Assembly (NCBI GenBank): GCA_033119305.1 | Contig: VSWD01000008.1 | Location: forward strand, 62,068,347 to 62,132,346 | DNA from: Pinctada imbricata | Lineage: Eukaryota | Length of the DNA stretch: 64,000 nt | Direction: 5' to 3' | Shown: positions 128-56,142 of the stretch, piece by piece | How the letters are laid out: each line of letters opens with the position of its first letter | Position numbering within the stretch: position 1 is the stretch's first letter | The notes under the pieces: generated by a model | Databases searched by the model: none | What the model was told of the DNA's origin: nothing | The model's input: only the letters and a program-made list of their open reading frames with translations | Program-made: the position numbers and the translations under genes

Positions 128-238
128 TTTCTATCTGTCAGTATATAGACAAAAACCAATGCACAAACTATAATCCATGATTTTGTTTGTGCATCGGTTT
201 TTGTCTATAAATTTTGTACATCGATAGACAGAAACATA
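128..238. repeat. Palindromic hairpin: a ~25-bp near-perfect inverted repeat (tatagacaaaaaccaatgcacaaac / gtttgtgcatcggtttttgtctata) around a 16-bp loop
   Basis: Read directly; the second arm is the reverse complement of the first with one mismatch. Confidence 0.5.
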
Positions 239-299
239 GTGTAATCAAAGATTACGAAGCTCACCTCGTGGCAGCAAAGTTCAATTTAAACATATCTCT

Positions 300-840
300 A
301 AGTACATGTATATTAAGATAATCACTCAAGTGGAAAAAAGTAGGTCAAGGTCATTTCATGAAAGTTTGATCAAAGATACATCCAATATGCAAGTTTGGTA
401 CATGTAGCACTTATACTTTGCTCAATATTGGCCTTTAAAGGAAAATCACTCAAGCGGAAAAAGTAGGTCAAGGTCATTTTATGAAAGTTTGATCAAAGAT
501 ACATCCAATATGCAAGTTTGGTACATGTAGCACTTATACTTTGCTCAATATTGGCCATTAAAGGCAAAAATCACTCAAGTGGAAAAAGTAGGTCAAGGTC
601 ATTTTATGAAAATTTGATCAAAGATACATCCAATATGCAAGTTTGGTACATGTAGCACTTCTACTTTGCTCAAAATTAGCCTTTAAAGGCAAAATCACTC
701 AAGCGGAAAAAGTAGGTCAAGGTCATTTTATGAAAGTTTGATCAAAGATACATCCAATATGCAAGTTTGGTACATGTAGCACTTATACTTTGCTCAATAT
801 TGGCCTTATAAGGCAAAATCACTCAAGCGGAAAAAGTAGG
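300..840 (+). repeat. Satellite A: ~123-bp unit, ~4.4 copies (gtaggtcaaggtcattttatgaaagtttgatcaaagatacatccaatatgcaagtttggtacatgtagcac...)
   Basis: Periodicity read directly: gtaggtcaaggtc at ~340, 463, 587, 709, 833. Confidence 0.85.
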
Positions 841-1600
841 TCAGATGCTGCATCCGATGCATGGGTTCACCTCAGCCTCCCAAGATGAATCCCTTGTTCA
901 AGTTTGGTTACTGTAGCATCAGTACTTTGTCAGATATTGAACTACCCCAAAAACTTTAACCAGACATTGACAAAGTCATTCAACCAGAAAATGTAGGTCA
1001 GATGCTGCATCCAATGCATGGGTTCACCTCAGCATCCCAAGATGAATCACTTGTTCAAGTTTGGTTACTGTAGCATCAGTACTTTGTCATATACTGAACT
1101 ACCCCAAAAACTTTAACCAGACATTGACAAAGTCATTTAACCGGAAAATGTAGGTCAGATGCTGCATCCGATGCATGGGTTTACCTCAGCATCCCAAGAT
1201 GAATCACTTGTGCAAGTTTGGTTACTGTAGCATCAGTACTTTGTCATATACTGAACTACCCCAAAAACTTTAACCAGACATTGACAAAGTCATTCAACCG
1301 GAAAATGTAGGTCAGATGCTGCATCCGATGCATGGGTTTACCTCAGCATCCCAAGATGAATCACTTGTGCAAGTTTGGTTACTGTAGCATCAGTACTTTG
1401 TCAGATACTGAACTACCCCTAAAACTTTAACCAGACACTGACAAAGTCATTCAACCGGAAAATGTAGGTCAGATGCTGCATCCGATGCATGGGTTCACCT
1501 CAGCATCCCAAGATGAATCACTTGTGCAAGTTTGGTTACTGTAGCATCAGTACTTTGTCAGATACTGAGTTACCCCAAAAACTTTAACCGGACGCGGACG
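836..1600 (+). repeat. Satellite B: ~155-bp unit, ~5 copies. Related to satellite A (shared aaatgtaggtca and caagtttggt.a.tgtagca motifs) and directly abutting it
   Basis: gtaggtcagatgctgcatcc at ~836, 994, 1149, 1305, 1460. Confidence 0.85.
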
Positions 1601-1640
1601 GGGACGGGGACGGGGACGCGGACGCGGACGCCGGGGTTAT
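1598..1640 (+). repeat. Hexanucleotide microsatellite (GGGGAC/GCGGAC)n just before the F1 3' hairpin
   Basis: ggacgcggacggggacggggacggggacgcggacgcggacgcc. Confidence 0.9.
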
Positions 1641-2380
1641 AGCATAAGCTCATCTCAACTTCGTCGAGGTGAGCTAAAAATTATTAGTCATTTCTTAATG
1701 ACATGTCTGGTATTTCAATTTACCTATATCTGAATTGTTCGACAGTTTTTAGCGTAGCTTCGTCATCTGAGTCAGGGTCTTCATCCGGTGGGCGTCCAAT
1801 ATCCGTGGTGGGTAAGAACTTGCCCAGTAACCCAGTGTGAAGCTGTACCAAGCACGCTGTAGCTATAAATATCACCGACAGAGAAACCAACGCAAATACA
1901 GCTCCTGATTGAGAAAGAGAAGGAATTCATGATTAAGATGCTTCATGAAATCATATTACATCAATCTTTGACTTTTCCACAAGTCATAATCTGATTTTAA
2001 GAAGTTTCTTTCATAAGAAAAATCCTATAAGCTTTCAATGATTGAACTTACAGAACTTTTTTACTGATTATACACATGAATATCAATGCATTTTCATGAG
2101 CAAAGAAAATAGACCATTTTCCATTCTTGTAAGACGTCTAAGTCAACATCTTTTGGCATTGCTTTTCATTATGACATCAATGTTCCACAATTCCAAAAGT
2201 TCCTACTTTGGACATTTTTCTTCATTTTGTCAGCAATTATGAATTTCTGCAAGTGGTCTATTATGCAACTTCTCAAAATGGTGATTCTTTTTTTGTATGA
2301 ATATAAAGCTAAGGTTATCATTGAAAGGTTATGAAAGAAGGTAAACACTTATTCATTACTATATTTTTGTAACTTAAAAA

Positions 2381-3076
2381 AAAAATAGCAATCCAAGGTA
2401 TGCTTGTGTCGCCTGTGAAGCGGCTTATTTTTAAAAAGTGGATCAAATATGTAGGTTAAGGTCACTTGGTTCAAAATTATTGGTATCAGTAGGTAAGTCT
2501 TGTCAAAGGATATTCACATGTGAAATATCAGACCTCTTACTAGATATGGTGAATCTCAAATGTTCAACAAAGAAAGTCAATCATCCAGGTCAAGGTCACT
2601 AGGTAAAAAATTGTTGGTAACAATAGAAAGGTATCATCATAAGAAATACACATGTGGAATATTACAGTCCTACCTATCACTTACCAACAACCAGGTTAAA
2701 GTTTTGTCTACGGACAACGACAACGACGCTGCCGCCGAGGGTATGACATTAGCTCGTCGGACTTTCGTCCCGGCGAGCTAAAAATTATAATTTGTGTAGA
2801 AAGGTCTTGTCATAAGGAATACATGTGTGAAATACCATAGCCCTATCACTTACCAATAAAAAATATAGCCAATCTTGATTTTTTAAAGGTAGGTCAAATA
2901 TCTAGATCAAGGTCACTAGGTCAAAAATAATGGTATGTGTAGAAAGGGGTTGTCAAAAGGAATTCACATGTGAAATATCAAGCCCAATCACTTACCAATC
3001 AAAAGTTATGGGGTATGACACCCAAAGTGTGACAGACAGACGGACAACTTACAAAGTGCGCAGGCGACACAAAAAG
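2381..3076 (+). mobile_element. Family F2 satellite-bearing element, with an internal F1-type 3' module (GACAAC microsatellite + hairpin GCTCGtcGGACtttcGTCCcggCGAGC + taaaaattat at 2700-2789)
   Basis: The F2 5' terminus aaaatagcaatccaaggWatgctYgtgtcgcctgYgaagcggc matches those at 32186 and 43318. The F2 3' terminus aaagttatggggtRtgacacccaaagtgtgaca(GAC)n...gcgcaggcgacacaaaaa matches 33180-33302 and 44090-44190. Terminal inverted repeats gtgtcgcctgtgaagc / gcgcaggcgacac. Confidence 0.55.
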
Positions 3077-4417: not shown

Positions 4418-4725
4418 AAAAACATTAACACAAATGCCCCCGTCGGCATCTTTGTCAGTAAAAATTCTAAAATGGTCAAACTCAAAGGTCAAGGGGTCAA
4501 ATATTTTGGCATCCATGGAAAGGTCTTGTTACAAGGAATACACATGTGAAATATCAAAGCCCTATCCCTTACCACTCATGGCCAAGGTAAAAGTATTTTG
4601 AAAGTATCCTTTACCATTCAAAAGTTATTAGCAAGGTTAAATTTTTTGCAGATAAACAGACAGACAAACCAACAGAGCAAAAACTACATGCCCCCGAATC
4701 TTTGAATACGGGTGCATATTAAAAA
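4418..4725 (+). mobile_element. Short family F3 element (~1.3 satellite units). 5' aacacaaatgcccccgtcggcatctttgtcagt, (CAGA)n, and 3' hairpin atgcccccgaatctttgaatacgggtgcat
   Basis: Both termini match the F3 copies at 6143, 24581, 34606, 49861 and 55639. Confidence 0.55.
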
Positions 4726-4845
4726 TAAACCCTAAACTACTACAGGCAATAAGGCCAAATCGAGACTTTGAGATGCGTCAGTTTTAGTTGAAGTTTACTT
4801 TATCTACCAGTATCTAAGGAATTATTACAATTTTAATTGTTTTGG

Positions 4846-5905: not shown

Positions 5906-6142
5906 AAAACAGGGGACAAAAAATATTCATGTAAAATATGAAAGCTATACTGCTTATGGTTTAACTTCAAGAGATACATGTATGGTCAACTTTAAGTTTT
6001 TGAAAAGTATGCAAAATTTCAAGGTCAAGGCCATTAGGTCAAAGGTCAAGGTTTCACATGAAAGGCCGTGTCATAAGAAATCTTCAAGAAGATTAGGAAT
6101 AACAAAGCTGTATCCATTACTGCTGAAAGATATAAACAATAA

Positions 6143-6718
6143 AATCTGTGTTTGTGAAACACGATCCCCCGTTGGCATCTTTGTCAGTAAAACAGATGAA
6201 AAGAAGTTCACATTTGAGGTCCAGGTCACAAGGTCAAATTTAGTATCCTTGGAAACATCTTGCCACATGGAATTCATATGTAAAATATGAAAGCCCTATC
6301 ACTTACCATTCAAAAGTTAAGGCTAAAGTTTAAATTTTCGAAATTAGGTCAAATTCCAAGGTCAACATCACAAGGTCAAAAATTTTGGTATCCATGGAAA
6401 GGTCTTTTAACAAGGAATACAAATGTGAAATATGAAAGCCCTATCACTTACATGTACCAGTACCATTCGAAAGTTATGCCCAAGGTTAAAGTTTTTCAAA
6501 AGTAGGTCAAACTCCTAGGTCAATGTCACAAGGTCAAAAATTTTGGTATCCATGGAAAGATCTTGTCACAAGGAATACAAATGTGAAATAGGAAAGCCCT
6601 TTCACTTACCATTCAAAAGTTATTACCAAGGTTAAAGTTTTTGCAGGACAAACAGACAGACAGACGGAAAGACCAAAAACTATATGCCCCCGAATCTTCG
6701 ATAACAGGGGCATAAAAA
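6143..6718 (+). mobile_element. Family F3 element: 5' tctgtgtttgtgaaacacgatcccccgttggcatctttgtcagt, 4 satellite units, (ACAGAC)n and 3' hairpin atgcccccgaatcttcgataacaggggcat
   Basis: Termini match the other F3 copies; the internal ~142-bp units carry AGGTCA direct repeats. Confidence 0.65.
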
Positions 6719-6719
6719 G

Positions 6720-15145: not shown

Positions 15146-17710
15146 AGGTTATGTTTACAATTTCGCTCTCCATATAATCACTACTTGGATTTCCATTCAG
15201 TCTCGAGAATCACTGATGATACATTTTTTATAGAATGCACATATGGTACATTAAATTACTACTATAGAATATACATATCAATATGATAAACTAATCTGAC
15301 AATGAGAACTCTTGTCTGGCGAAGAAAACACAATATACAAACTTCCTTCCGGTCAAAATCACAATTTTTCAATTTTGGTCGAGAAGTTCGAGTATTTGCT
15401 TCTTGAAAGGTTTGCTGAAATTTTGCTAACTGCAATAGCGTCGGTCAAGAAGAATCTGGTTTGATGGATATTGTAGCAGAAGTATCGGAGTACTTGTCTT
15501 CTGCAGATACGGGTAGTAAACTCTGGGCGGCCGTGAATGATTGTTAGAAAACTTAATTTGGGACATTAATTGTTGCTTGGACCCCTTGTGTTATGCTGTC
15601 TTGTTTGTATGGTCACTTTACACCACTATTGTGCGTTCTTCGAGACATATGGATAACTCGAAAAGTGGGAAGGTTGTGCACACGTAATCCGGATAACCTA
15701 CATCATTTGCTACCGGCGTAGCAGATGGCCATCCTAAGTCGGTACCGGTTGCACATTGGTCTCGATGGTTTATGTACAGAACATGCTTCAATAGTGCGAT
15801 CAACACAAACCACAGATTTGGGTATAAACAAGATACATAGGCCAATTATTCAGAATATATTTCTGGTCTGGTAGCATATAAGTACGAAGTGACTTCTGTA
15901 GCATATAAGTACGAAGTGACTTTCTGGGTTCCAAATTCTCAACTTTTTGTCTATGCATCGTGATATCATTTTAGGTTTGATATCATTAAGTGCAGTAGTT
16001 AAAAGGTAGCGGAAAACAAATGCTTGATTAATGTTTTGTGTTTGTTACCAAAAGAAATTTCAAGAGGAAAACAAATGAAAATTCAAAGCTTATTATTGAA
16101 CAGCTGTAAGTTATAGACATGAACGCACAAAGACAACCCCCATTTAGAATCACTAGACTACGTGTAAACCAATTACTGCTTGAAAAAAAAGTTGTCAAAA
16201 AAGCGAGTTCTAAAACAAGAAAATACAAAAGTGCAGCATCCCCTTGCATACCATTTGTATTCATATATGTAATAATACTCAATAAGCCTTCAACTTAAAA
16301 GCCAATATAATTTTCTAATGACCCTTTGACTCGTGACCTTCAAAATAGTGTTATTGTAGTGTTAAATACAAGTTCTGTTGGAAAATACACAAACTTGAGT
16401 GTATAATATGATCTTGGCAAATTCCAAACTCTAATGACCTAAAAAAATCCATAGGATTCTGCTTTTATATGAGAACCCATAACTATAAAAAGTTCAAAGA
16501 ATTTCATTCAATGTTCCGTCTAGGAGCATATTAAAGACTTCTCCTTGATAGGTTCTTATTGATGGCATTGACTTTTTTAGTCCACGATCTTGAATATCAA
16601 AGGTATTCTTTCTTGTACCATAATTGATTACATTTTTTATGAAATTTATAGAAAATGTGCCCTCTAGAATGTATACAAAGATTTTGATATGAAGTCCCAT
16701 CTTTGATGACCTTTACCCCCGTAACAATCAATAAAGTTCTGATGAAAAAATATGCCCTCAAGAGTGATTACCAGATTTTGAAAAATTCTAAATTATGACC
16801 TTGCCCGTTGACATTAGTTTTCCAATACATCATAACCATTTCTGACAAAGTTCTGATGATAAACATGCCTCCTCCAATGTATATACAAGGACTTTGACTA
16901 ATCACCATCATGGTCGACCAGTTTAATGAATGAAGTTCTATTGAAAATGTGACCTCCAGAATTTTGGTGAAGTCCATTCTGCGACCTTGCTCTATGACCT
17001 TGAAAAGCAAATTCCTTTCCAGGGTGGTTTCTCAGGTTCATATTAGTCTGAACAATTCTGATAATAAAAATTTCTCCCAAGACTGTCCAAAAGAAAGTGT
17101 AATACACACATCAACTCATGGCACACATCAAATTTCGTATGAACAATGGCTAAGTTACCATATTACCCTGTACATGTACATATATATTTTGCTATTATTT
17201 TCAAAATAGAAGATCCCTCTTGACCAGTCATTTAGTCTAAGCTTTTCCCATAGAGATTCACCAGTACATAACCTTGTTGTTTGGCCTTGAAAACTCAAGT
17301 GCTATTGTGATCCTTTGGACAATTCTGCTATACAAAGATTACATGAAGACAATAAGACTAACAGTGTCCTATTGTTAAATTGGTATATTCATACCAATAA
17401 TGATAAAAGCATATGCGTAAAAAAAAAATGTATATACAGTTGTATATAGAAAAAGGGGTAGGGCCACAAAGCCGGATACGTTGGCCCTATTTTTGAACAT
17501 TGTACTTCAGGAATATCTATTTGTGATTTGACACTTTTATACATTCTCTACTGAATATTGAATCTATATTTTGTAAACAATTTGTTTATCATTCGCATTT
17601 AGTCCTCTGAAAACACCAAAACCTGCAATATTCTGGAAATTGTTGAAAAATCTATTATTTTTCAATAAAATCAGCAGTGGTTGCATGCTTTAACTAACTT
17701 AAAACATAAG

Positions 17711-18531
17711 GTAATCAAAGATGACAGCGCTTACCTCGAAGGCATCATTGTCCCATGACCAGCATCTATACCTACATTGCACAAAGTATTTCCAGATGCA
17801 TCATCCACATAAGTTTGGTTGATAAAAAATTCAAAGAAGGCTGGAAATGAAGATTCTAATTTTACCATACCTGGCAAATCAAGTGTGAAATATTGGTCAG
17901 ATGCAGCATCTGTACAGTGCATTGCAGTAAGCATCCTCAGATACATCACCAACACAAGTTTTTTTTTATTGATCTAGGATTTAAAATAGGCTGGAAATGG
18001 ACCTGTCCCATTTTACTTAACCTGATTGCTCAAGCATGGAATGTGGACAAGTGCAGCATCTGTACCATGAATTGCATTAAGCATCCTCAGATGCATCATC
18101 AATGCAAATTTGGTTGATGTACTCGACTTATAGTAAGACTGGAATGGACCTGCCCCATTTTACCTAACCTGCTCACTCAAGCATGAAATGTAGGTCAGAT
18201 GCAGCCTCTGTACCACGCAGTGTTATAAGCATCCTCAGATGCATCATCCATGCAAGTTTGGTTGATGTAGGACTTATAGTAAGGCTGGAATGGACCTGTC
18301 AACTTTTACCTACCCTGCTCTCTCAAACATGAAATGTAGGTCAGATGCAGCCTCCGTACCATGCTTTGTTGTAAGCACCCTCAGATACATCATTCATGCA
18401 AGTTTGGTTGATGTAGGACCTATAGTTTGGCGGGAATGGACCTGTCCCGTTTTGCTTAACCTATGTTGCAGATGCCGACGACAGGCGATAGCATAAGCCT
18501 CCCTCTACTTTGCGAGGTGAGCTAAAATTAT
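17711..18531 (+). mobile_element. Family F1 element: 5' gtaatcaaagatgacagcgcttacctcg, ~6 copies of a 124-bp satellite (17760-18470), a short GACGAC microsatellite, a 3' hairpin and gagctaaaattat
   Basis: Termini match the element at 241-1684. The satellite is related to satellite B (aaatgtaggtcagatgcagc...catgcaagtttggttgatgtag). Confidence 0.65.
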
Positions 18532-24193: not shown

Positions 24194-26191
24194 GGGTACC
24201 TGTAAAGTGCGAAACGAAACAAAAACGAAACGAAACGAAACGAAACAAATCGAAACAAATTGAAACGAAACGAAACGAAACGAAACAGATCGAAACGAAA
24301 CAAAACAGATCGAAACGAAACGAAACAGATCGAAACGAAACAAAACAAAACATAAAACTTAAAGAAAATGAGAAAAAGAGGAAAAATCGCCGAAAACGAA
24401 TATTTCAAGACAAGATCTTATTGAAGGGTCAGGGGGTACCACTCTCCTCCTGCCGCCTCCCCCCTCCCCGTGGGGGGAGGGGGTCTTGGGCGGTCAAGAC
24501 AAATGTTTAAACTTTAAAGTGTAAATTGGTGCAATAGTGAAGTTATTTGGGTTATTTCCTTTTTTAAACCTTGAATAAAGCCTGTGTTTGTGAAACACGA
24601 ATGCCCCCGGTGGCATCTTTGTTAGTATAAACGCCATTTTCTGTTAAGTACGTGAAAAGTCAAAGTCAAGGTGACGAGGACAAAACCTTTTGCTAACAAT
24701 GAAATGGTCTTCTCACAAGGAATACACATGTGAAATATGAAAGCCCTATCACTTACTATTCAAAAGTTATGCCCAATGTTAAAGTTTTTGAAAAGTAGGT
24801 CAAAGGTCAAGGTCAGGGGGTTAAAACTTTTGGTATCAATGGAAAGGTCTTGTCACAAGGAATACACATGTGAAATATGAAAGCCCTATCACTTACCATT
24901 CAAAAGTTATGCCCAATGTTAAAGTTTTTGAAAAGTAGGTCAAAGGTCAAGGTCAAGGTCACAAGGTCAAAAATTTTGGTATCAATGGAAAGGTCTTGTC
25001 ACAAGGAATACACATGTGAAATGTGAAAGCCCTAACATTTACCATTCAAAAGTTATGCCCAATGTTAAAGTTTTTAGTTCGGACAAACAGACAGACAGAC
25101 AAACAGACGGACAGGCCAAAAACTATATGCCCCCGAATCTGTGATTCCGAGGGCATAAAAAAGAAATAGACCTGTTTAGATGAAAAACTAAGGTGAGCGG
25201 AGCGAGCCTGAAGTATTTGAAAAATGAATTGAAAATTGTGGCGAGCGAAGCGATCGGGAAAAAATTTTAAGGTATATATAGATGAATTTCGTGGTAATTT
25301 TTAGAATTGAGATTATGTACATGAACGCATAAGAGCAAGATTATTTATATTAAGAGTAATTTTCTAATTTTTTTGGGTTACTGTTACCCTCCCAATCATC
25401 TGTCCCTCCTCTCGCCCCCTTTCCTCTCCTCCCGCCCCCTTTCTCTCCCCTCCCTTTGTCCCTGTCCACCCCCTCATTATTGCCTTCAACCGTTAGTTCT
25501 TGTGGCTGGAGGGTTTTTTAAAGAATCAAAGTTGACGATTAAAACATAATATATACGGTATATAGCACAATTGCATTTTAAAGGAGAGTGATTGGGATGA
25601 ATAACCTCGTCACAGACGGAAAAATATTATTTAGCAGGGAGGAGTCTAGCGCAGAGGAAACGGAACTGTTCCGTTATGTGTATTTGAAAATTTTATCAGA
25701 AAAATGAGAACAATTAAAAACTGGGGGGCAGATTTCGTTTAAAAAGGATAAGATTTTTTCCTGAAATATGCCCCCACCCCGTTTTATGATCTCATTACGG
25801 TGTCATAGCGTGGTTTTCTATCCCCTCCCTTTTATTCCACTTAAATACATGAATGGCATTTGACATTTACTTTTTTTAATTGTCAACTTTGACTCTTTCA
25901 AGAAACCCTCTCTGCACTAGTTACAAATGTAGAACTCTTGGATTAAGGCAATATTACATGCTGCTCTTGTCTTGAAATATTCGTTTTCGGCGATTTTTCC
26001 TCTTTTTCTCATTTTCTTTAAATTTTATGTTTTGTTTCGTTTCGTTTCGATCTGTTTCGTTTCGTTTTGTTTCGTTTCGATCTGTTTCGTTTTGTTTCAA
26101 TTTGTTTCGTTTCGTTTCGATTTGTTTCGTTTCGTTTCGATTTGTTTCGTTTCGTTTCGTTTTTGTTTCGTTTCGCACTTTACAGGGACCC
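24194..26191. mobile_element. Non-autonomous DNA transposon with ~235-bp terminal inverted repeats (GGGTMCCTGTAAAGTGCGAAAC...; each contains a (GAAAC/GTTTC)n array) and a perfect 9-bp TSD, TTCTTTATC. MULE/Merlin-like by TSD length. It carries a nested F3 element
   Basis: TSD at 24185-24193 and 26192-26200. Arm 24194-24425 is the reverse complement of 25965-26191 at ~95% identity. No ORF. Confidence 0.6.
24581..25162 (+). mobile_element. Family F3 element nested inside the long-TIR element
   Basis: 5' cctgtgtttgtgaaacacgaatgcccccggtggcatctttgttagt, 3 units, (ACAGAC)n, 3' atgcccccgaatctgtgattccgagggcat. Confidence 0.65.
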
Positions 26192-29450: not shown

Positions 29451-30819
29451 AATAAGTTGCATTTTATATATTGTACCCTTTATATTTGCGAACTTTATAT
29501 GTTGCATTTAGCTTTTTCAGTATACAAACATCACATAAACAAAATTCATAAAACAAATGAGACAAAAGTTAAGTATTCATATGAGTATAGCATATAAAAA
29601 TAAAGAGATAATATGAACAAGTTTGCTTTTTTTTAATGTACTCAGTCTTCACGAAAACTTAAACTCGCCCAACAGCTTGGGCTACCAGAAATTCTGCTGT
29701 ACTAGTATAATTTGTCTAACAAACTATACAATTTACCAGTAGGATTTGTAATCTGATTAAATCAGGCTGGTTGTTTTTAAAAATATTTTTGTGAAAACTG
29801 TTTAATAGTAAATATCTTACAACAAAAAATCTAGAATAAAGTTAATACATGTATTTTACAAATTATTTGATAGAATTCCCTTGTTGGCTTTAGGATATAT
29901 AAGGTTACACAGCCTGGTTCATGTTGAAATAGAACTAAAACACCCTGTATAATCCTCATATTTATTATGTCCTGCTTTCCTATGCAAAGAAAAGCTACAG
30001 TTTTTTCACTTTCTACCCAAGGTTAAAAAATGATTTCTTCTTGACATGAAAAGATGCAAACTTATTAGTGATTGTTCAAGAATAGTTAAATCAGAAATCA
30101 CACCAAATTATCCAAACAATAAATCTGAGACATAGCCTGTTAAATGGAATGTATATGTGTTAATGGACTCAGAGGGGGCATTAAGTCAAGACCTGAACGG
30201 ATATACTTATCATCAGTTACACCTTACCATCATAAGTGTAGGAACCTGCAAGCATAATTCACATCTTCTTTATCATCAAACTTACAGACTTACTTCATAA
30301 ACTTAGAAGTAAGCAACAAGTAGTTACAGATGGGGATATTCATGCCCTGAAAGTAGCATGCAATCAGACTGTGACTTTGTGAATATAACTGGCGATGTCA
30401 AGAATCAATAATCCCTCAACTAAGGCGTCAAATCAATGTTCTGATTGTGCAACCATTACCCTTACACGCAATCTGCTATTTGTAGTCCCATTTAAGGAAA
30501 GTATGCGTATTAGGAAAAACACGTCCTGCTTAAGATGGATCTGTTTAATCAACTTTCATTGATCAGTTTCAGCATTTGGACAAAGTTTGGATAATACCTA
30601 GATTCTAAATTGTAAATGGCAACCTTAATTCAAATAAAACAAATAAGAAAACGATGTGCACCCAGCTAGTAAGCCTTTTATTCTACATCTATTGGTGGCC
30701 CTTAACAAGACAACATTCATTAATAATGTTACTTCCATGTAGGAATCTATATCCTAAAGGCCAATCTACAAGAAAATAATCATACAAGTAAACAAAATGT
30801 TTTTCATAAAAAAAGATGT

Positions 30820-33800
30820 CTCCCCCCTCCCTCTAAGTTACTTTGACCTTAGGCCAAAATGCAAAATGATGTGAAACCTTTGAGTCATGGGCAACATCAT
30901 ACTAAAACATGAAAGTAATTCATTACATTGTTTGAGGTAAAGCCCAAACATGATTGGCATATATAATTTCATTATAAGCATATTTAAAGAAATTGACTTT
31001 GGTCACATGACCTTGGATATAGGTGATCTGAAATCTACACTCACTGACGAAGATTAAGTACCCGAAACATGCATGTCTGGTCCATGCTGAAAACTTATCT
31101 GTTTTTAAATGATGCTATTGAATTTGAAGACGTTTAGCATTGTATGGATCATGAGCATCAAAAAACTGAATTAGTGATTGGATACACAGTTCAAAATATA
31201 AAGCCTAAACGTTATTAGCATAGACAATTTCAGCCTGGACATGCTTAGCATATACAATTTCATTACCAAAGTAAGAAGCTACCTTAACCATGTGACCTTG
31301 GGACAATGTGATAAGAAACATTCAGTCCTTAGAAATAACATACTAAAATATGAAAACAATTGTAAGAAGGGTTCAGGAGATATAGCCCAGACAATATTAG
31401 TACGTACAATTTCATTAAAAAGAACTAAATGATCTTGACCTTGGGCACATGACCTTGGGTCAAGATGATAAGAAACCCTCCAATCCTGAGCAACAGCATA
31501 CTATAGTATAAGAGTGATCCAGTATACGATTCCACAGATATAGCCCAGACTCAATAGCATTTACAATTTCATTAAAAAATGTAATACTTGACCTTAGTCA
31601 TATGACCTTGGATCAAGAAGGTGTGAAACCTTTGGGTCATCAGCACCATCATACTAAAATATGACGTGATCTGATCACGGTTCAAAAGATTAAGCCTGGA
31701 CATAATACATGTAACAAATACAATTTCATTTAAAATATACTAATTGACCTTGACTTTGGTCACATGACCTTGAGTCAATGTGATGTGAAACCTTTACGTG
31801 ATAAGCAACAACATACTAAAATATGACGGTGATCTGATAAATAGTTCAAAGAGATACAGCCCCAATGGGATAGCATATACAATTTCATTTAAATGTACTT
31901 AGTAACTTTGACCTTAATCAAATGACCATGGGTCCAGGTGAAACCTTTTGGTCATGACTAAATACATTCTTAAACTTGAAAGCAATCCAGTATGCAGTCC
32001 AAGGGATAAAGCCTAAACAAGAATGTATCTACAATTTCATTAAAAATGTAGTAAGTGACCTTGGCCTTGGGTCAAGGTGATGTAAAACCTTCCGGTCATA
32101 AGCAAAAACATACTTAAATATGAAAGTGATCCGGCAAACGGTTCAAGAGATATAGCCCGGACAAGAATGTATGCACAATATCATTAAAAATAGCAATCCA
32201 AGGAATGCTCGTGTCGCCTGCGAAGCGGCTTGATTATTATTCTAGAAAGTGGATCAAAATTATTGGTAACAGTAGAAAAGTTTTGTCAAATGAAATTCAT
32301 TTGAAATATCAGACCTCATAATTACAAATTAAAAGATATGGTCATTCTCAAATTTTCAGAAAATAGTGTCAATCATCTAGGCAAAAGTCACTATGTAAAA
32401 ATTTGTAACGAAAAGGTCTCATCATAAGAAATATCAAAGACCTATCACTTACCAATTAAAAAATATACACAACCTTAATTTCTTAGAAAAGAAGGTCAAA
32501 CAGTTAGGTCAAGGTCAAACATTATGGTATGTGTAGAAATGCATTGTTACGAGGAAAATACATGTGAAATAGCAAAGCCCTATCACCTACCAATCAAAAG
32601 ATATAGCCAATTTGAATTCTCTTGAAAAGTAGGTCAAATATCTAGGTCAAGATCACAAGGTTAAATATTATGGTCTGTGTAGAAAGGTCATGTCACAAGG
32701 AATACACATGTGAAATATCAAAGCCCTATCACTTACATGTACCAATCAAAAGATATATACAATCTTAATACTTTTGAAAAGTGGGTCAAATATGTAGGTC
32801 AAGGTAAATAGGTCAGAAATTATGGTATGTGTAGAAAGGCGTTGTTACAAGGAATAAACATGTAAAATATCAAAGCCCTATCACTTACCATTAAAAAGAT
32901 ATAGTGAATCTTATCTTTTTTTCAAAAGTAGGTCAAATATCTAGGTCAAGGTCACAAGGTCAAAAATTATGGTGTGTGTAGAAAGGTCTTGCCACAAGGA
33001 TTGCATGTGTGAAATATCAAAGTCCTAACCCTTACCAATCAAAAGATATATCAATTCTTAACTTTTTTGAAAAGTAGGTCAAATATGTAGGTCAAGGTCA
33101 CTAGGTCAAAAGTTATGGCATGTGTAGAAAGGTCTTGTCACAAGGAATACACATGTGAAATATCAAAGCCCTATCACTTACCTTTCAAAAGTTATGGGCT
33201 GTGACACCCAAAGTGTGACAGACAGATGGACTGACTGACGGACGGACGGACAACGGACAAAGTGATCCCTAAGTGTCGCTATGCTTCGCAGGAGACACAA
33301 AAATGCACTAAGTGACCTTGACCTTGGTCACATGACCTTGGGTCAAGGTGATGTGAAACCTACGGGTCATAAGCAACAACATGCTAAAATATGAAAGTGA
33401 TCGGGCCAACGTTTCCAGAGATATAGCTTGACAGGAATGTATTCATAATTTCATTAAAAATGCACTAAGTGACCTTGACCTTGGTCACATGACCTTGGGT
33501 CATGGTGATGTGAAACATTTGGGTCATAAGCAACAACATACTAAAATATGAAAGTGATCGGGCGAACGGTTCAAGGGATATGGCACAGACTGGAAAGTAT
33601 GCACAGTTTCATTAAAAATGCACTAAGTGACCTTGACCTTGGTCACATGACCTTGGGTCAAGGTGATGTGAAACCTTCGGGTCATAAGCAACAACATACT
33701 AAAATATGAAAGTGATCCGGCATTCGTTCAAGAGATATAGCCCGGACAGGAATGTATACATAATTTCATTAAAAATGCACTAAGTGACCTTGACCTTGGT

Positions 33801-34150
33801 CACATGACCTTGGGTCAAGGTGATGTGAAACCTTCAGGTCATAAGCAACAACATACTAAAATATGAAAGTGATCCGGCAAATGGTTCAAGAGATATAGCC
33901 CGGACAGGAATGTATGCATAATTTCATTAAAAATGCACGAAGTGACCTTGAACTTGGTCACATGACCTTGGGTCAAGGTGATGTGAAACCTTCGGGTCAT
34001 AAGCAACAACATACTAAAATATGAAAGTGATCGGGCTAACGGTTCAGGCGATATAGCCCGGACACGATGTGTGACAGACGGACAGACAGACAGACAGACG
34101 GACGACGAAGGCAAAACCAATATGTCTCCTCTCTGTTGGGGGGGAGACAT
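30820..34150 (+). repeat. Family F5 array: a ~158-bp unit (gcactaagtgaccttgaccttggtcacatgaccttgggtcaaggtgatgtgaaacc...). There are ~9 diverged copies, then a nested F2 insertion, then 5 near-identical copies. It ends in (GACA/GACGGACA)n plus the hairpin atgtctcctctctgttgggggggagacat
   Basis: Periodicity and the terminal 8-bp-stem hairpin (ATGTCTCC/GGAGACAT) read directly. Confidence 0.75.
32186..33302 (+). mobile_element. Complete family F2 element (~8 x 120-bp units) inserted into the F5 array between aaaaat and gcactaag, with at most a 1-bp duplication
   Basis: F2 5' and 3' termini are present. Flanks are tcattaaaaat | element | tgcactaagtgacc. Uninterrupted F5 units read cattaaaaatgcactaagtgacc. 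Confidence 0.7.
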
Positions 34151-34270
34151 AAATACATGTATATAAACAATAAAATATGAAATATCCAACTGTAACTCTT
34201 CTAAATGTCTCCTTGACAATGTGTATGGAGGAAAACAAATACTTAAGCATAGAAAATATAGGATTCTTAC

Positions 34271-34479: not shown

Positions 34480-34605
34480 CTGAAATACAGAAAATTTTCT
34501 CAGTTAACTAAGCGATATTGCTCACAGAAAGGTAATGAACTAAATACTAGTATTGTGAAAGAAGAAAACACTATGGTGTGGTTGTGAAACACTGCATAAT
34601 AAAGC

Positions 34606-36100
34606 CAGTGTTTGTGAAACACAAATGCCCCCGGTGGCATCTTTGTTAGTATGAACACTAATTTCTGTTAAGTACATGTATGTGAGGTCACTGGGTTAAA
34701 AGGTCAAAGGTCAAGGTCACGAGGTCAAAAATTTTGGTATCAATATAAAGGTCTTGTCACAAGGAATACACATGTGAAATATGAAAGCCCTATCACTTCC
34801 CATTCAAAAGTTATGCCCAATGTTAAAGTTTTTGAAAAGTAGGTCAAAGTCCAAGGTCAAGGTCACAAGGTCAAAAATTTCGGTTTCCATGGAAAGGTCT
34901 TGTCACAAGGAATACACATGTGAAATATCAAAGCCCTATCACTTTCCATTCAAAAGTTATGGTCAAGGTTAAAGTTTTTAATAAGTAGGTCAAAGGTCAA
35001 GGTCAAGGTCACGAGGTCAAAAATTTTGGTATCAATGGAAAGGACTTGTCACAAGGAATACACATGTGAAATATGAAAGCCCTATCACTTCCCATCCAAA
35101 AGTTATGTCCAATGTTAAAGTTTTTGAAAAGTAGGTCAAAGGTCAAGGTCAAGGTCACGAAGTGAAAAATTTTGGTATCAATGGAAAGGTCTTGTCACAA
35201 GGAATACACATGTGAAATATGAAAGCCCTATCACTTCCCATCCAAAAGTTATGCCCAATGTTAAAGTTTTTGAAAAGTAGGTCAAAGGTCAAGGTCAAGG
35301 TCACGAGGTCAAAAATTTTGGTATCAATGGAAAGGTCTTGTCACAAGGAATACACATGTGAAATATGAAAGCCCTATCACTTCCCATTCAAAAGTTATGT
35401 CCAATGTTAAAGTTTTTGAAAAAGTAGGTCAAAGGTCAAGGTCACGAGGTCAAAAATTTTGGTATCAATGGAAAGGTCTTGTCACAAGGAATACACATGT
35501 GAAATATGAAAGCCCTATCACTTCCCATTCAAAAGTTATGCCCAATGTTAAAGTTTCTGAAAAGTAGGTCAAAGGTCAAGGTCAAGGTCACGAGGTCAAA
35601 AATTTTGGTATCAATGGAAAGGTCTTGTCACAAGGAATACACATGTGAAATATGAAAGCCCTATCATTTCCCATTCAAAAGTTATGCCCAATGTTAAAGT
35701 TTTTGAAAAGTAGGTCAAAGGTCAAGGTCAAGGTCACGAGGTCAAAAATTTTGAAATCAATGGAAAGGTCTTATCACAAGGAATACACATGTGAAATATG
35801 AAAGCCCTATCACTTCCCATCCAAAAAATATGCCCAATGTTAAAGTTTTTGAAAAGTAGGTCAAAGGTCAAGGTCAAGGTCACGAGGTCAAAAATTTTGG
35901 TATCAATGGAAAGGTCTTGTCACAAGGAATACCCATGTGAAATATGAAAGCCCTATCACTTCCCATTCAAAAGTTATGTCCAATGTTAAAGTTTTTCGGA
36001 CAAACAGACAGACAAACAGACAAACAGATAAACAGACAAACAGACGGACAGGCCAAAAACTATATGCCCCCGAATCTTTGATTCCGGGGGCATAAAAAAA
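34606..36100 (+). mobile_element. Family F3 element: ~10 x 142-bp units, a long (ACAGAC)n and the 3' hairpin atgcccccgaatctttgattccgggggcat
   Basis: Termini and units read directly. A partial duplicate of the 5' terminus (gttgtgaaacac) lies 25 bp upstream. Confidence 0.7.
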
Positions 36101-36944
36101 CCCCTTGTTTGTGTACAGATTTAAAAGACATATTGCAAGTAAGCATCAGACATACAGATTGACTGACAAACTGACAAACTTACTTATTGACTGACCAGAG
36201 TGTTCACACTAGGCAATTACAGGGTAGTGGTTAAGTAGTACATTTAGGCCCACATCATGATGATGTGGACCTTCAGCATTGTTCAAATGATTGATGTTTG
36301 TAATTTTAGTCTTTGCTCATTGGGCAGATCAAAGTACCAATAGTACTTATATGCTCTGGAGGTCAGGATTCTACCTATTCCTCCCATTCCCAGGTTCAGA
36401 TTCCAACTTTGTGAAACCCAGATGCACAGCTACAAGTCACACCCTAGCATACTGTATGATACCATAAAACGTTTTGTTACCCAACCTTTAAGGAAGAAAA
36501 GCCTACACAACATTTACGAACTAAACCCATATTTTCCCCAACTCAGGGGCCATACCTACACTTTGATACCCTGGTGCACCACTCACTAGAGTCACATCCT
36601 ACCACATCATCTTAAGTTTTGAAATATATCTGTTCAGAATTTTGAGTTGGTCAATTCTGTAACTGTGACTTTTGACCTAACCTAATATTGATAAGTAATA
36701 AATCCTAAACCACTAAAGACAGTAATTCTGGGTTGCAAAGCACTATTAAGTATTAGTTGATCAACTTGATGTTTACTTTATTAATTGAAGGTATTGTTAA
36801 AAGTAATCTATACATGTGAAATAGCAAGGCCCCACCCTTTATAGTTTAAGACACATTGTCAATTTCATTGGGGGGGGGGGGGTTAAAACTCAAGGTCAAG
36901 GTCAAAGTCCCAAATAAAGCCTAGGCAATGCATAGCATAGCATC

Positions 36945-38645
36945 CCCTCGCACTGCCCCCTCTAGGCTGTATAAAAAGATTTTGACCTTTTCCAATCTGT
37001 GACCTTGACCTTTGGCCTTTTAAAAATCAATAGGGTTCTTCCTCTTTTTAAAAGCTATCATTGTATGAAGTTTGGTTAAGGTCCAATCAAAACTGCGTCC
37101 TCTAGGCTGTATACAAGGATTTTGATCTTTTCCAATCTGTGACCTTGACCTTTGACCTAAAAAAGTCAATAGGGTACTTCCTCTTATAAACTATCAAGAG
37201 TATGAAGTTTGGTTAAGACCCAATCAAACCTGTACCCTCTAGGCTGTATACAGGGATTTTGACCTTTTCCAACCTGTGACCTTTGATCTTTGACCTAAAA
37301 AAATCAATAGGGTACTTCCTCTTATAAACTATCAAGTGTATGAAGTTTGGTTAAGACCCAATCAAACCTGCACCCTCTAGGCTGTATACAGAGATTTTGA
37401 CCTTTTCCAACCTGTGACCTTTGATCTTTGAGCTTGAAAATCAATAAGTTTCTTCCTCTTATAAACTATCAAGAGTATGAAGTTTGGTTAAGACCCAATC
37501 AAACCTGCACCCTCTAGGCTGTATACAGGGATTTTGACCTTTTCCAACCTGTGACCTTTGATCTTTGACCTAAAAAAATCAATAGGGTACTTCCTCTTAT
37601 AAACTATCAAGAGTATGAAGTTTGGTTAAGACCCAATCAAACCTGCACCCTCTAGGCTGTATACAGAGATTTTGACCTTTTCCAACCTGTGACCTTTGAT
37701 CTTTGAGCTTGAAATCAATAAGTTTCTTCCTCTTATCATAAACTATCAGTGTATGAAGTTTGGTTAAGGCCCAATCAAAACTGCACCCTCTAGACTGTAT
37801 CCAAGGATTTTGACCTTTTCCAATCTGTGACCATGACCTTTGACCTAAAAAAATCAATAGGGTACTTCCTCTTATAAACTATCAAGAGTATGAAGTTTGG
37901 TTAAGACCCAATCAAACCTGCACCCTCTAGGCTGTATACAGGGATTTTGACCTTTTCCAACCTGTGACCTTTGATCTTTGACCTAAAAAAATCAATAGGG
38001 TACTTCCTCTTATAAACTATCAAGAGTATGAAGTTTGGTTAAGACCCAATCAAACCTGCACCCTCTAGGCTGTATACAGGGATTTTGACCTTTTCCAACC
38101 TGTGACCTTTGATCTTTGACCTAAAAAAATCAATAGGGTACTTCCTCTTATAGAACTATCAAGTGTATGAAGTTTGGTTAAGACCCAATCAAACCTGCAC
38201 CCTCTAGGCTGTATACAGGGATTTTGACCTTTTCCAACATGTGACCTTTGATCTTTGACCTTGAAAATCAATAGGGTTCTTCCTCTTGTCATAAGCTATT
38301 AGTGTATGAAGTTTGGTTAAGGCCCAATCAAAACTGCACCCTCTAGACTGTATCCAAGGATTTTGACCTTTTCCAATCTGTGACCTTGACCTTTGACCTA
38401 AAAAAGTCAATAGGGTACTTCCTCTTATAAACTATCAAGAGTATGAAGTTTGGTTAAGACCCAATCAAACCTGCACCCTCTAGGCTGTATACAGGGATTT
38501 TGACCTTTTCCAATCTGTGACCTTGACCTTTGACCTACGACCTTGAAAATCAGTAGGGTTCTTCTTCTTGTCATAAGCTATCAGTGTATGAATTTTGGTT
38601 AAGATCCAATCAAAACTGCACCCTCTAGGCTGTATACAAGTATTT
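36945..38645 (-). repeat. Family F4 array: a ~120-bp unit, ~14 copies (ctctaggctgtatacagggattttgaccttttccaacctgtgacctttgatctttgacc...). It is the reverse-strand counterpart of the AGGTCA satellites, ending next to an imperfect palindrome atccccctgcaactatgttgcaaggggata
   Basis: Units contain tgaccttgacctttgacc, the reverse complement of ggtcaaaggtcaaggtca. Confidence 0.75.
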
Positions 38646-38699
38646 TGTGACACACACACTCACTTGCACACGAACGAGGGCGTTACTATATCCCCCTGC

Positions 38700-49860: not shown

Positions 49861-49914
49861 TGTGTTTGTGAAAAACAAATGCCCCCGTCGGCATCTATGT
49901 CAAATTGTATAATG

Positions 49915-49946
<32 letters not shown>

Positions 49947-55430: not shown

Positions 55431-55638
55431 CATGCACTTGCTTCACATATACGAGTATTACATGAAATTTAGTGAAATGCTGTGTGACGTTTGCGGAAGA
55501 AAAGTCGAAAAATTTGCGACAGTCTTGCTTACCGAATCACCCCATAATTTTGGCGAAAGACATTGAGTAATTCATCGAAATTCCGTGCAGTGATTTAATG
55601 CGCAAGTCACTTGACGGATAGATCACTAAAAGAAAAAA

Positions 55639-56109: not shown

Positions 56110-56142
<33 letters not shown>

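What the first reader, a model, noticed from the sequence alone, without database searches (positions are those of the whole stretch)
241..1684. Satellite-carrying non-autonomous elements: 5' terminus, satellite, microsatellite, 3' hairpin (Helentron/HINE or pearl-like), in at least six terminus families
Across the window the 120-180-bp satellites are not free arrays. Each is bounded by a conserved 5' terminus and by a 3' module made of a short microsatellite (GGGGAC, GACAAC, ACAGAC or GACGGACA), a hairpin and a short A/T tail. In F1 the termini are gtaatcaaagatKac..gctYacctcg (5') and hairpin+GAGCTAAAAWTTAT (3'). In F3 the 5' terminus is ctgtgtttgtgaaacacgaatgcccccggtggcatc, which itself contains the hairpin GTGTTTgtgAAACAC. 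In F2 it is aaaatagcaatccaagg...gtgtcgcctg. The architecture is known from DINE-1 and from Helentron-derived elements (pearl and similar) described in bivalves and Drosophila. Here at least six distinct terminus pairs (F1-F6) carry satellites that all share the AAAGTAGGTCA core. One element (241-1684) carries two different monomer types (123 bp and 155 bp) joined head to tail.
Basis: partly seen in the sequence, partly recalled or inferred. Interest (0 to 1): 0.7.

Follow-up and report, generated by a model that had tools for sequence, protein, structure and literature searches.

The report
Satellite-carrying non-autonomous Helentron transposons (HINEs)
The short satellite arrays in this window are the cargo of non-coding rolling-circle transposons of the Helentron type, a kind already described in oysters, clams, mussels and Drosophila, so the finding is real and correctly classified but ordinary.

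Summary
The element is real. It runs from about 232 to 1684, 9 nt further left than reported. It carries a 124-bp array (x4.2) joined directly to a 157-bp array (x5), then a (GGACGS)n microsatellite, a 10-12-bp hairpin and an AAAAATTAT tail. Its other end has a 6-bp-stem palindrome followed by an 11-nt inverted copy of the hairpin arm.

Six terminus families in the window show the same anatomy. It matches the published definition of HINEs (DINE-1, Cg_HINE, pearl). By the Helentron convention the elements lie on the minus strand.

Mobility is shown by an in-window empty site and by 39 independent flanks of a related family in metagenome contigs from another host. No Rep/helicase gene is in the window.

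Two generalisations are overstated. One array has no termini and three others lack a recognisable left end, and only four of six families share the AAAGTAGGTCA core.

The 157- and 146-bp monomers are 61-70% identical to C. gigas CgiSat37, the repeat of Cg_HINE_7. Two-array HINEs are also already published.

Unexpected extra: all 17 insertions (28% of the window) point the same way.

The parts
232..240 (-). E1 (family F1): short tail at the Helentron 3' terminus. It reads AAACATAGT on the + strand and ACTATGTTT-3' on the element strand.
   Evidence: AAACATA is shared with the second F1 copy at 17702-17710, and sequence upstream of it differs.
241..255 (-). E1 3' palindrome GTAATCaaaGATTAC (6-bp stem, 3-nt loop).
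   Evidence: Folds as predicted, although it is not significant on its own (z -1.4). An equivalent palindrome sits at the same position in F2, F3, F4 and F6.
258..268 (-). E1 3' subTIR AGCTCACCTCG.
   Evidence: Exact 11-nt inverted match to 1665-1675; 0 of 1000 shuffles reach it.
269..319 (-). E1 unique linker between the 3' module and the arrays.
   Evidence: Not part of any TRF array.
320..843 (-). E1 array of 124-bp monomers, 4.2 copies.
   Evidence: TRF: 95% matches, score 953.
844..1593 (-). E1 array of 157-bp monomers, 5 copies. The switch from the 124-bp array lies inside the homologous block 814-843.
   Evidence: TRF: 96% matches, score 1413. Junction block is 25/30 identical between the two monomer types. 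The monomers are 66% identical overall.
1589..1631 (-). E1 microsatellite, (CGGACG/GGGGAC)n on the + strand and (GTCCSC)n on the element strand.
   Evidence: TRF: period 6, 7.2 copies. This is the GTCC/GTCY type reported for Cg_HINE (PMC7492417).
1647..1659 (-). E1 IR, the partner arm of the 5' subTIR.
   Evidence: Hairpin -7.1 kcal/mol, z -3.7.
1664..1675 (-). E1 5' subTIR (TCGAGGTGAGCT on the + strand).
   Evidence: GGYGAGCTAAAA is conserved in four F1-type ends.
1676..1684 (-). E1 A/T tail at the Helentron 5' terminus (AAAAATTAT on the + strand).
   Evidence: Conserved in E1, E9 and the internal F1-like end at 2700-2778; the sequence after TTAT differs in each.
17702..18531 (-). E9, the second F1 copy: 146-bp monomers x4, eroded microsatellite.
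2378..3075 (-). E2, family F2 (subTIR GTGTCGCCTG). It contains an internal F1-like end module at 2700-2778.
32186..33303 (-). E14, family F2, inserted inside a 158-bp monomer of E13.
   Evidence: Its joined flanks align across four intact monomers at 86-91% identity. subTIR match score 13 in a 16-nt alignment; 0 of 1000 shuffles reach it.
43320..44184 (-). E17, family F2.
30790..34155 (-). E13, family F4: 158-bp monomers, subTIR ATGTCTCCCCC, hosting E14.
   Evidence: Exact 11-mer at 30816 (+) and 34140-34150 (-). Hairpin z -3.9.
34600..36100 (-). E15, family F3: 146-bp monomers x8.9, subTIR ATGCCCCCGG, palindrome GTGTTTgtgAAACAC.
   Evidence: (hairpin z -4.6).
6140..6718 (-). E6, family F3, inserted in an older array (5936-6960).
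24576..25162 (-). E11, family F3.
49854..50409 (-). E19, family F3 (diverged copy).
55634..56322 (-). E20, family F3.
4420..4729 (-). E3, degenerate F3 copy whose palindrome is lost.
36912..38720 (-). E16, family F5: 138-bp monomers x12, 14-bp-stem hairpin TATCCCCCTGCAAC/GTTGCAAGGGGATA. It is inserted in an older array (36790-39100).
   Evidence: (z -5.6).
46557..47606 (-). E18, family F6: 161-bp monomers x4.8, 15-nt subTIR TAGTCCCCTACCGGC, palindrome ATCGCtgaGCGAT.
   Evidence: z -4.9; 0 of 1000 shuffles.

Best explanation
Region 232-1684 is one copy of a non-autonomous Helentron (a HINE, the class that includes Drosophila DINE-1, oyster Cg_HINE and pearl, Donax DTC84 and Mytilus MgE). At least 16 further copies from six terminus families lie in the same window.

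Anatomy, read on the minus strand (shown):
1. a T-rich 5' terminus;
2. a 10-15-nt 5' subTIR with a complementary IR 3-13 nt away, which together form a hairpin;
3. a (GTCY)n-type microsatellite;
4. a cargo of 2-12 tandem monomers of 124-161 bp, always in the same orientation;
5. a short linker;
6. the 3' subTIR;
7. a 5-8-bp-stem palindrome;
8. a 6-13-nt tail ending in Ts.

Mechanism (inferred from the family): the elements encode nothing. They would be mobilised in trans by the Rep/helicase/endonuclease protein of an autonomous Helentron that recognises the subTIRs and the 3' palindrome. That protein would nick at the T-runs, copy or peel off one strand by rolling-circle replication, and integrate it into oligo-T without a target-site duplication.

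Array dynamics (inferred): the arrays ride along passively and change length by unequal exchange or slippage. The two-array structure of this copy most likely arose by recombination or template switching between two related monomer variants, inside the 30-nt block they share.
For: - Anatomy of 241-1684.
- The same layout in six families, with intact subTIRs: F1 11 nt, F2 12-13, F3 10, F4 11, F6 15, each reached by 0-5 of 1000 shuffles; F5 11 nt with one mismatch, reached by 43 of 1000.
- End hairpins have z -3.7 to -5.6.
- The microsatellites are of the GTCY/GTCC type, as in Cg_HINE (PMC7492417).
- No ORF longer than 346 aa. Pfam finds only RVT_1, CH_2 and DDE_3, and nothing Helitron-like.
- Discrete insertion: the joined flanks of E14 align across four intact 158-bp monomers at 86-91% identity. 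E6 and E16 likewise split older monomers.
- All element flanks in the window are unique, so these are separate insertions and not a local duplication.
- A related family in 40 metagenome contigs has 39 different left flanks. Information content falls from 1.07 to 0.25 bits exactly 13 nt outside the palindrome.
- Five complete copies of that family show the same layout and no flank duplication.
- The flank next to the terminus is A-enriched on this strand: 46% A at positions -20 to -14 against 37% further out.
- The F1 monomers are 61-70% identical to C. gigas CgiSat37 (E 1e-17), which is CL7, the repeat of Cg_HINE_7.
- The published definition of the class matches point by point.
Against: - No autonomous Helentron, and no Rep/helicase remnant, was seen in the window or in 139 kb of related contigs. 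Mobilisation by a Helentron protein is therefore inferred from structure only.
- The TT target and the absence of a TSD cannot be proven here. Both ends carry A-runs, so the E14 empty site is compatible with a 0-5-bp poly-A duplication.
- For F1 itself only two complete copies and two partial copies are available, and the flanks of the copy at 232-1684 (..acag | tagt..) do not show an obvious TT.
- The small 3' palindromes are not thermodynamically significant taken one at a time (z -0.4 to -1.7).
- The F5 palindrome is weak: GCCTAGGC, with no loop, 15 nt from the subTIR.
Confidence: 0.88

Rival explanations
1. On this view the inverted repeats serve as TIRs for a DDE transposase and AA is a 2-bp target-site duplication.
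For: Every element has As at both outer edges. The E14 empty site (CATTAAAAATGCAC intact; A5 on both sides when occupied) fits an AA duplication as well as it fits none. DTC84 and pearl were first described this way (PMC3879986).
Against: - The ends are asymmetric. One inverted repeat is about 25-35 nt from the terminus behind a palindrome and a tail; the other is 4-9 nt from the terminus and paired with a local IR.
- The number of terminal As varies from 4 to 7 between copies. This is the behaviour described for Helentron T-runs (PMC4067079).
- Empty-site studies of DINE-1, HINEs and Cg_HINE found no target modification.
- Five full copies of the related family show no duplication beyond As.
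Confidence: 0.05
2. Non-autonomous canonical Helitrons: 5'-TC, 3'-CTRR, a hairpin 10-12 nt from the 3' end, insertion between A and T.
For: Repbase files the corresponding C. gigas elements under DNA/Helitron. Rolling-circle elements with a 3' hairpin and no TSD are the general Helitron pattern.
Against: On the element strand the 3' ends read ..CTATGTTT (F1)..GGCTTTAT (F3) and ..ATCTTGTT (related family, 39 copies). None is CTRR. The 5' ends begin with T-runs, not TC. SubTIRs, which are present here, are a Helentron trait and not a Helitron trait (PMC4067079).
Confidence: 0.03
3. Ordinary dispersed satellite arrays whose flanks look alike because of local segmental duplication or chance.
For: One array (14689-15140) has no termini, and several arrays are degenerate.
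Against: Flanks outside the termini match only themselves. Each terminus pair is specific to its family, and the intact subTIRs exceed the shuffles. Thirty-nine unrelated flanks occur in another host. There is an exact in-window empty site.
Confidence: 0.01

Closest known systems
Cg_HINE elements of Crassostrea gigas (Vojvoda Zeljko et al. 2020, PMC7492417), especially Cg_HINE_7 and the two-array elements Cg_HINE_10_13 and Cg_HINE_11_12
   Same: - Identical module order: 5' subTIR + IR + microsatellite (GTCY/GTCC/GTCK), arrays of 2-12 monomers of 138-181 bp in fixed orientation, then 3' subTIR + palindrome.
- Oligo-T ends and several unrelated terminus families in one genome.
- Nested insertion into other repeats.
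[quoted passage not shown]
- The F1 157- and 146-bp monomers are 61-70% identical to CgiSat37 (= CL7), the repeat of Cg_HINE_7.
   Different: - Monomer lengths differ: 124, 157 and 146 bp here against 178 bp for CL7.
- Sequence identity is low. The dominant 146-bp monomer of F2/F3 was not found among the 52 C. gigas satellite consensus sequences by motif search.
- The host is therefore probably another species, or these are undescribed families.
- The flank consensus sequences of Cg_HINE were illegible in the held supplement, so the termini could not be compared.
- Cg_HINEs are reported in both orientations; here all 17 share one.
pearl family (C. virginica, Anadara), MgE (Mytilus galloprovincialis) and DTC84 (Donax trunculus)
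   Same: L flank + core repeats + microsatellite + R flank, with an ~11-bp inverted motif that is subterminal in L and terminal in R, and As at both ends (PMC3879986). This is exactly the + strand view of the window elements.
   Different: The sequences of pearl, MgE and DTC84 were not available, so only the architecture could be compared. DTC84 uses an (ACGG/ACGA)n microsatellite and has a fixed order of monomer variants.
DINE-1 and HINEs of Drosophila, mosquito and mite (Thomas et al. 2014, PMC4067079)
   Same: 12-15-bp subTIRs, an IR 3-22 nt from the 5' subTIR, a microsatellite, central repeats, a 5-10-bp palindrome 8-35 nt from the 3' terminus, variable T-runs at the termini, a T-rich target and no coding capacity.
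   Different: There is no DINE-1 core sequence. The 3' subTIR lies about 25-35 nt from the terminus, against 38-60 nt in the mite. No autonomous partner has been identified here.
Canonical Helitrons
   Same: Presumed rolling-circle mobilisation, a hairpin near the 3' end, no TSD, and capture of host or tandem-repeat DNA.
   Different: No 5'-TC or 3'-CTRR ends, and subTIRs are present.

Membership tests
HINE (non-autonomous Helentron; Thomas et al. 2014, Vojvoda Zeljko et al. 2020) | Subterminal inverted repeats of about 11-15 nt | tested here: met
   F1 11 nt, F2 12-13, F3 10, F4 11, F6 15 (0-5 of 1000 shuffles reach them); F5 11 nt with one mismatch (43 of 1000). Older copies are eroded.
HINE (non-autonomous Helentron; Thomas et al. 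2014, Vojvoda Zeljko et al. 2020) | An IR complementary to the 5' subTIR a few nt away (DINE-1/Cg_HINE type) | tested here: met
   Hairpins at the microsatellite-side end have z -3.7 to -5.6 in F1, F3, F4, F5 and F6. F2 is weak at z -0.7.
HINE (non-autonomous Helentron; Thomas et al. 2014, Vojvoda Zeljko et al. 2020) | A short palindrome (5-10 bp) after the 3' subTIR, 8-35 nt from the 3' terminus | tested here: met
   Present 0-3 nt from the subTIR in F1, F2, F3, F4 and F6, with tails of 6-13 nt. F5 is doubtful. In the related family the terminus lies 8 nt beyond the palindrome in 39 copies. The single palindromes are not significant by energy alone; the argument is their recurrence at the same position.
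HINE (non-autonomous Helentron; Thomas et al. 2014, Vojvoda Zeljko et al. 2020) | A microsatellite next to the 5' module and central tandem repeats in constant orientation | tested here: met
   TRF arrays and microsatellites. The GTAGGTCA core occurs 43 times on the + strand and once on the - strand.
HINE (non-autonomous Helentron; Thomas et al. 2014, Vojvoda Zeljko et al. 2020) | No coding capacity | tested here: met
   No ORF inside the elements matches any Pfam family.
HINE (non-autonomous Helentron; Thomas et al. 2014, Vojvoda Zeljko et al. 2020) | Insertion into oligo-T/TT with variable terminal T-runs and no target-site duplication | tested here: inconclusive
   All ends carry A-runs of 4-7 on the + strand, and flanks are A-enriched. 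Five full copies of the related family show no duplication. The one in-window empty site lies in an A5 run, so a 0-5-nt duplication cannot be told apart.
HINE (non-autonomous Helentron; Thomas et al. 2014, Vojvoda Zeljko et al. 2020) | An autonomous Helentron (Rep/helicase/endonuclease) sharing the subTIRs and the 3' end | not testable with these tools
   None in the window or in the 40 related contigs. The host genome is not in any searchable collection. The partners of Cg_HINE are also still unidentified.
HINE (non-autonomous Helentron; Thomas et al. 2014, Vojvoda Zeljko et al. 2020) | Many copies with unrelated flanks | tested here: met
   F3 has 6 copies, F2 has 3 and F1 has 2 complete plus 2 partial in 64 kb, all with unique flanks. 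There are 39 distinct flanks in the other host.
Canonical Helitron | 5'-TC and 3'-CTRR termini, insertion between A and T | tested here: not met
   Termini read T-run...GTTT, TTAT or TTGTT.
TIR-type MITE | Terminal inverted repeats with a fixed 2-10-bp TSD | tested here: inconclusive
   The inverted repeats are subterminal and the ends are asymmetric. No duplication of non-A bases was seen. An AA duplication cannot be formally excluded.
pearl / DTC84 architecture | L flank + core repeats + microsatellite + R flank; an ~11-bp inverted motif subterminal in L and terminal in R; As at both ends | tested here: met
   Matches the + strand layout of all six families. Sequence relatedness to pearl itself was not tested because no sequences were available.

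The most novel reading that the evidence does not exclude
All 17 HINE insertions across 56 kb point the same way. This could reflect strand-specific integration of the single-stranded rolling-circle intermediate, coupled to the direction of replication-fork movement or of transcription. Such coupling is known for bacterial HUH transposons of the IS200/IS605 type (own knowledge). The alternative is selection after insertion. If strand-specific integration were real, HINE orientation would record fork polarity in a metazoan genome.
Probability: 0.1. Interest if true: 0.65.

Novelty: new member of a known kind. Interest (0 to 1): 0.3.

Why it matters
The result confirms, in a genome other than those described, that short 'satellite' arrays in gene-rich DNA are transposon cargo and not free tandem repeats. 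That matters for repeat annotation and for models of how satellites arise and spread.

The window supplies clean teaching examples. These include a two-array element whose junction lies in a shared monomer block, a nested insertion with its own empty site, and termini conserved between two hosts whose monomers are only about 75% identical.

None of this changes the current picture. What is not described in the papers read here is the uniform orientation of all copies, at a density of 28% of the window.

Tried and rejected
- **Species identification failed.** A protein search with the SPEF1-like exons returned nothing. An exact look-up of the 176-aa ORF found no record. Full-text searches for monomer strings hit only unrelated papers. 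The Ostreidae satellitome paper holds no supplements, and the Limnoperna satellite supplements have no match.
- **Cg_HINE flank consensus sequences could not be compared.** The table is illegible and the spreadsheet is cut off after CL1.
- **Viral contig scans** with F1 and F3 termini found nothing.
- **No autonomous partner was found** in ORFs of the window or of the 40 loci.
- **No tRNA or Rfam family** is present, so a SINE reading has no support.
- **A strict hairpin-plus-A-run scan** missed the imperfect hairpins and was replaced by manual tables.
- **A regional orientation bias in the other host was not seen.** Contigs L009 and L028 carry arrays in opposite orientations, but the data are too few to conclude anything.
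- **The nuclear-receptor idea was demoted.** I considered that the conserved core is a nuclear-receptor response element. AAAGTAGGTCA, AATGTAGGTCA and AAAATRGGTCA all fit WAWNTRGGTCA, the ROR/Rev-erb site, and TCAAGGTCA fits the NR5A/ERR site (both consensus sites from my own knowledge). The core is not more conserved than the rest of the F2/F3-type monomer. By eye, it is absent from the homologous C. gigas CgiSat37 consensus (sequence).
Full report

Yes. TRF reports a 124-bp unit x4.2 at 320-843 (95% matches) abutting a 157-bp unit x5.0 at 814-1593 (96%). A 6-nt microsatellite follows at 1589-1631. The sequence then reads AGCTCATCTCAAC-ttcg-TCGAGGTGAGCT-AAAAATTAT, ending at 1684.

As single-stranded DNA this folds at -7.1 kcal/mol, with z = -3.7. 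The 3' arm of that hairpin is an exact 11-nt inverted copy of AGCTCACCTCG at 258-268, and none of 1000 shuffles gives as good a match. Just left of it lies the palindrome GTAATCaaaGATTAC (241-255).

A second copy of the same family is at 17702-18531, with 146-bp monomers. The two copies also share AAACATA upstream of the palindrome, so the element starts at about 232 rather than 241.

**2. Inventory of the window**

Self-comparison and reading of every array give 17 insertions plus three arrays without ends. Together they cover 18.0 kb, or 28% of the window.

Six families have both ends:

| Family | Copies | subTIR | Monomer |
|---|---|---|---|
| F1 | E1, E9 | AGCTCACCTCG | 124, 157 and 146 bp |
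| F2 | E2, E14, E17 | GTGTCGCCTG(CG) | 146 bp |
| F3 | E3, E6, E11, E15, E19, E20 | ATGCCCCCGG | 146 bp |
| F4 | E13 | ATGTCTCCCCC | 158 bp |
| F5 | E16 | ATCCCCTYGCA | 138 bp |
| F6 | E18 | TAGTCCCCTACCGGC | 161 bp |

- The youngest copy of each family keeps an intact subTIR. It is reached by 0-5 of 1000 shuffles, and by 43 of 1000 for F5. Older copies are eroded.
- On the + strand every family has the same order. An A-rich tail of 6-13 nt comes first, then a short palindrome, the subTIR, a linker, the monomers, a GAC-rich microsatellite, the IR, the subTIR and an A-run.
- Three further elements (E4, E10, E12) have only a recognisable right end.
- The array at 14689-15140 has no termini at all.
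- Two older arrays are split by later insertions.
- 'Each array is bounded' is therefore an overstatement.

**3. Monomer relationships**

- The three F1 monomers (124, 157 and 146 bp) are homologous, at 66-83% identity.
- F2 and F3 monomers are 86% identical to each other.
- F4, F5 and F6 monomers cannot be aligned with the others.
- The core WAAAGTAGGTCA or a close variant links F1, F2, F3 and F6. It is absent from F4 and F5.
- In E1 the 124-to-157 switch lies in a 30-nt block where the two monomers are 25/30 identical. This points to recombination or template switching between related variants.

**4. What it is**

The published definition of HINE/DINE-1 elements is:
- 12-15-bp subTIRs;
- an IR 3-22 nt from the 5' subTIR;
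- a microsatellite and central repeats;
- a 5-10-bp palindrome 8-35 nt from the 3' end;
- T-runs at both termini;
- a T-rich target with no TSD and no coding capacity (PMC4067079).

The Cg_HINE description for C. gigas is the same (PMC7492417). All structural features are met here.

In the Helentron convention the elements lie on the minus strand. The big hairpin beside the microsatellite is the 5' subTIR plus IR.

Canonical Helitron termini (TC...CTRR) are absent.

**5. Evidence of mobility**

- *Empty site in the window.* E14 (F2) interrupts a 158-bp monomer of E13. Its joined flanks align across four intact monomers at 86-91% identity. The intact site reads CATTAAAAATGCAC and the occupied site CATTAAAAAT[AGCAAT...GACAC]AAAAATGCAC.
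- *Other nested insertions.* E6 and E16 similarly split older monomers.
- *Unique flanks.* All flanks in the window match only themselves, which excludes local duplication.
- *A related family in another host.* A scan of metagenome contigs with the F3 palindrome plus subTIR returned 40 contigs from two ENA sets, OBLZ01 and OCZB01.
  - Their monomers are only 72-78% identical to those of the window, so they probably come from a different host.
  - The 39 distinct left flanks lose all similarity exactly 13 nt outside TGTGAAACAC. Information content drops from 1.07 to 0.25 bits.
  - On the element strand the terminus is therefore ...GTGTTTCACAAACACATCTTGTT-3'.
  - Five complete copies show monomers, a microsatellite, the hairpin ATGCCCCCGATCTTCGATCTCGGGGGCAT and A4-7. 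None shows a flank duplication.
- *F1-type ends in that host.* Ends of the form (GACRAC)n + hairpin + AGGTGAGCTAAAAA also occur in those contigs.

**6. What remains inferred**

- No Rep/helicase gene or remnant is present in the window. Pfam finds only an RT fragment, the CH_2 exons of a SPEF1-like gene and a DDE_3 fragment. None is present in the 139 kb of related contigs either.
- Trans-mobilisation by a Helentron protein rests on structural membership only. The same gap exists for Cg_HINE.
- Because both termini are A/T runs, the one in-window empty site cannot separate 'no TSD' from a short poly-A duplication.

**7. Relation to known elements**

C. gigas CgiSat37 is 177 bp long. It corresponds to cluster CL7, the repeat of Cg_HINE_7 (PMC8268682). 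It aligns to the F1 157- and 146-bp monomers at 61-70% identity, with E down to 1e-17.

Elements with two consecutive arrays are already described: Cg_HINE_10_13 with related monomers and Cg_HINE_11_12 with unrelated monomers.

The dominant F2/F3 monomer was not found among the 52 C. gigas satellite consensus sequences, and the species could not be identified. The families here are best called new members of a known kind.

**8. Extras**

- *Uniform orientation.* All 17 insertions share one orientation. The GTAGGTCA core occurs 43 times on the + strand and once on the - strand. A two-sided binomial probability for 17 of 17 is about 1.5e-5.
- *A likely cause.* The recognisable genes lie on the minus strand: three SPEF1-like CH_2 exons and a probable exon at about 1735-1940. 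The elements carry 35 AATAAA/ATTAAA hexamers on the + strand and 5 on the minus strand. The surviving orientation keeps poly(A) signals off the sense strand. Selection is therefore the most economical explanation. Strand-specific integration is not excluded.

Noticed in passing
window 232-56322 (all elements): All 17 HINE insertions have the same orientation: the GTAGGTCA core occurs 43 times on the + strand and once on the - strand. The elements carry 35 AATAAA/ATTAAA hexamers on + and 5 on -. The recognisable genes are on the minus strand, so the poly(A) signals sit antisense to them. Cg_HINEs are reported in both orientations.
   Followed up: partly
whole window: HINE-derived sequence makes up 18.0 kb, or 28% of this genic window. 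The 13 main clusters in C. gigas make up only 0.85% of that assembly.
   Followed up: partly
window 2378-3075, internal module 2700-2778: E2 has F2 ends but contains a complete F1-like end module in its middle: (GACAAC)n, hairpin CTCGTCGGAC/GTCCCGGCGAG and GAGCTAAAAATTAT. No matching left end is present. About 75 nt of the expected F2 monomer is replaced, as if two elements had recombined through their homologous monomers.
   Followed up: partly
window 34578-34592 and 36101-36215: A second, orphan copy of the F3 palindrome (GTGGTTGTGAAACAC, 14/15 identical) lies 15 nt outside the left end of E15. Beyond the right end of E15 comes CCCCTTGTTTG followed by a degenerate GACA/GACT microsatellite. 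E15 seems to sit inside the 3' module of an older, repeat-less F3-like element.
   Followed up: partly
window 14689-15140: This short array has about 2.7 monomers with the AATGTAGGTCA core and a TGCAAGTTTG box, but no recognisable termini. It is interrupted at 14926-14969 by a perfect 16-bp-stem palindrome (TTTAAATTTTGAGAAA/TTTCTCAAAATTTAAA).
   Followed up: partly
window 144-209: A 25-nt foldback, 96% complementary with a 16-nt loop, lies about 20 nt upstream of the left end of E1. It may be a small hairpin MITE.
   Followed up: no
window 24210-24415 and 25965-26170: Inverted arms of 206 nt (88% complementary) built of (CGAAA)n/(GTTTC)n bracket 1.5 kb that includes E11. They may be the long TIRs of another transposon or a foldback element.
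   Followed up: no
window 52291-51959, ~44420-44300, 34499-34240 (minus strand); 13018-14055 (+); 26378-26620 (-); ~1735-1940 (-): Exons of a SPEF1-like gene (Pfam CH_2, E 1e-22) lie on the minus strand, with HINEs in its introns. Also present are a non-LTR reverse-transcriptase fragment, a mariner-type DDE_3 fragment, and a probable exon encoding a transmembrane segment with an acidic tail just right of E1.
   Followed up: partly
monomer cores, e.g. window 337-353, 990-1000, 34836-34865, 46890-46900: Every variant of the conserved core (AAAGTAGGTCA, AATGTAGGTCA, AAAATRGGTCA, TATSTAGGTCA) fits WAWNTRGGTCA, the ROR/Rev-erb (HR3/E75) half-site. The adjacent TCAAGGTCA is the NR5A/ERR half-site (consensus sites from own knowledge). 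There are 55 and 63 matches against about 2 and 1 expected, but that excess follows simply from the repeats. The core is not specially conserved within the monomer, and by eye it is absent from C. gigas CgiSat37.
   Followed up: partly
L001-L040 (ENA metagenome sets OBLZ01 and OCZB01): Two metagenome assemblies contain host-derived contigs, apparently from a bivalve. They carry a HINE family whose 3' palindrome and subTIR are identical over 21 nt or more to F3 of the window, while the monomers are about 75% identical. L001, L017 and L040 also carry a repeat with GGTCATGAAATTCACAATTTTGG, which resembles the C. gigas Cg170/CL1 monomer (GGTCATGATTTTCACAACTTTG).
   Followed up: partly
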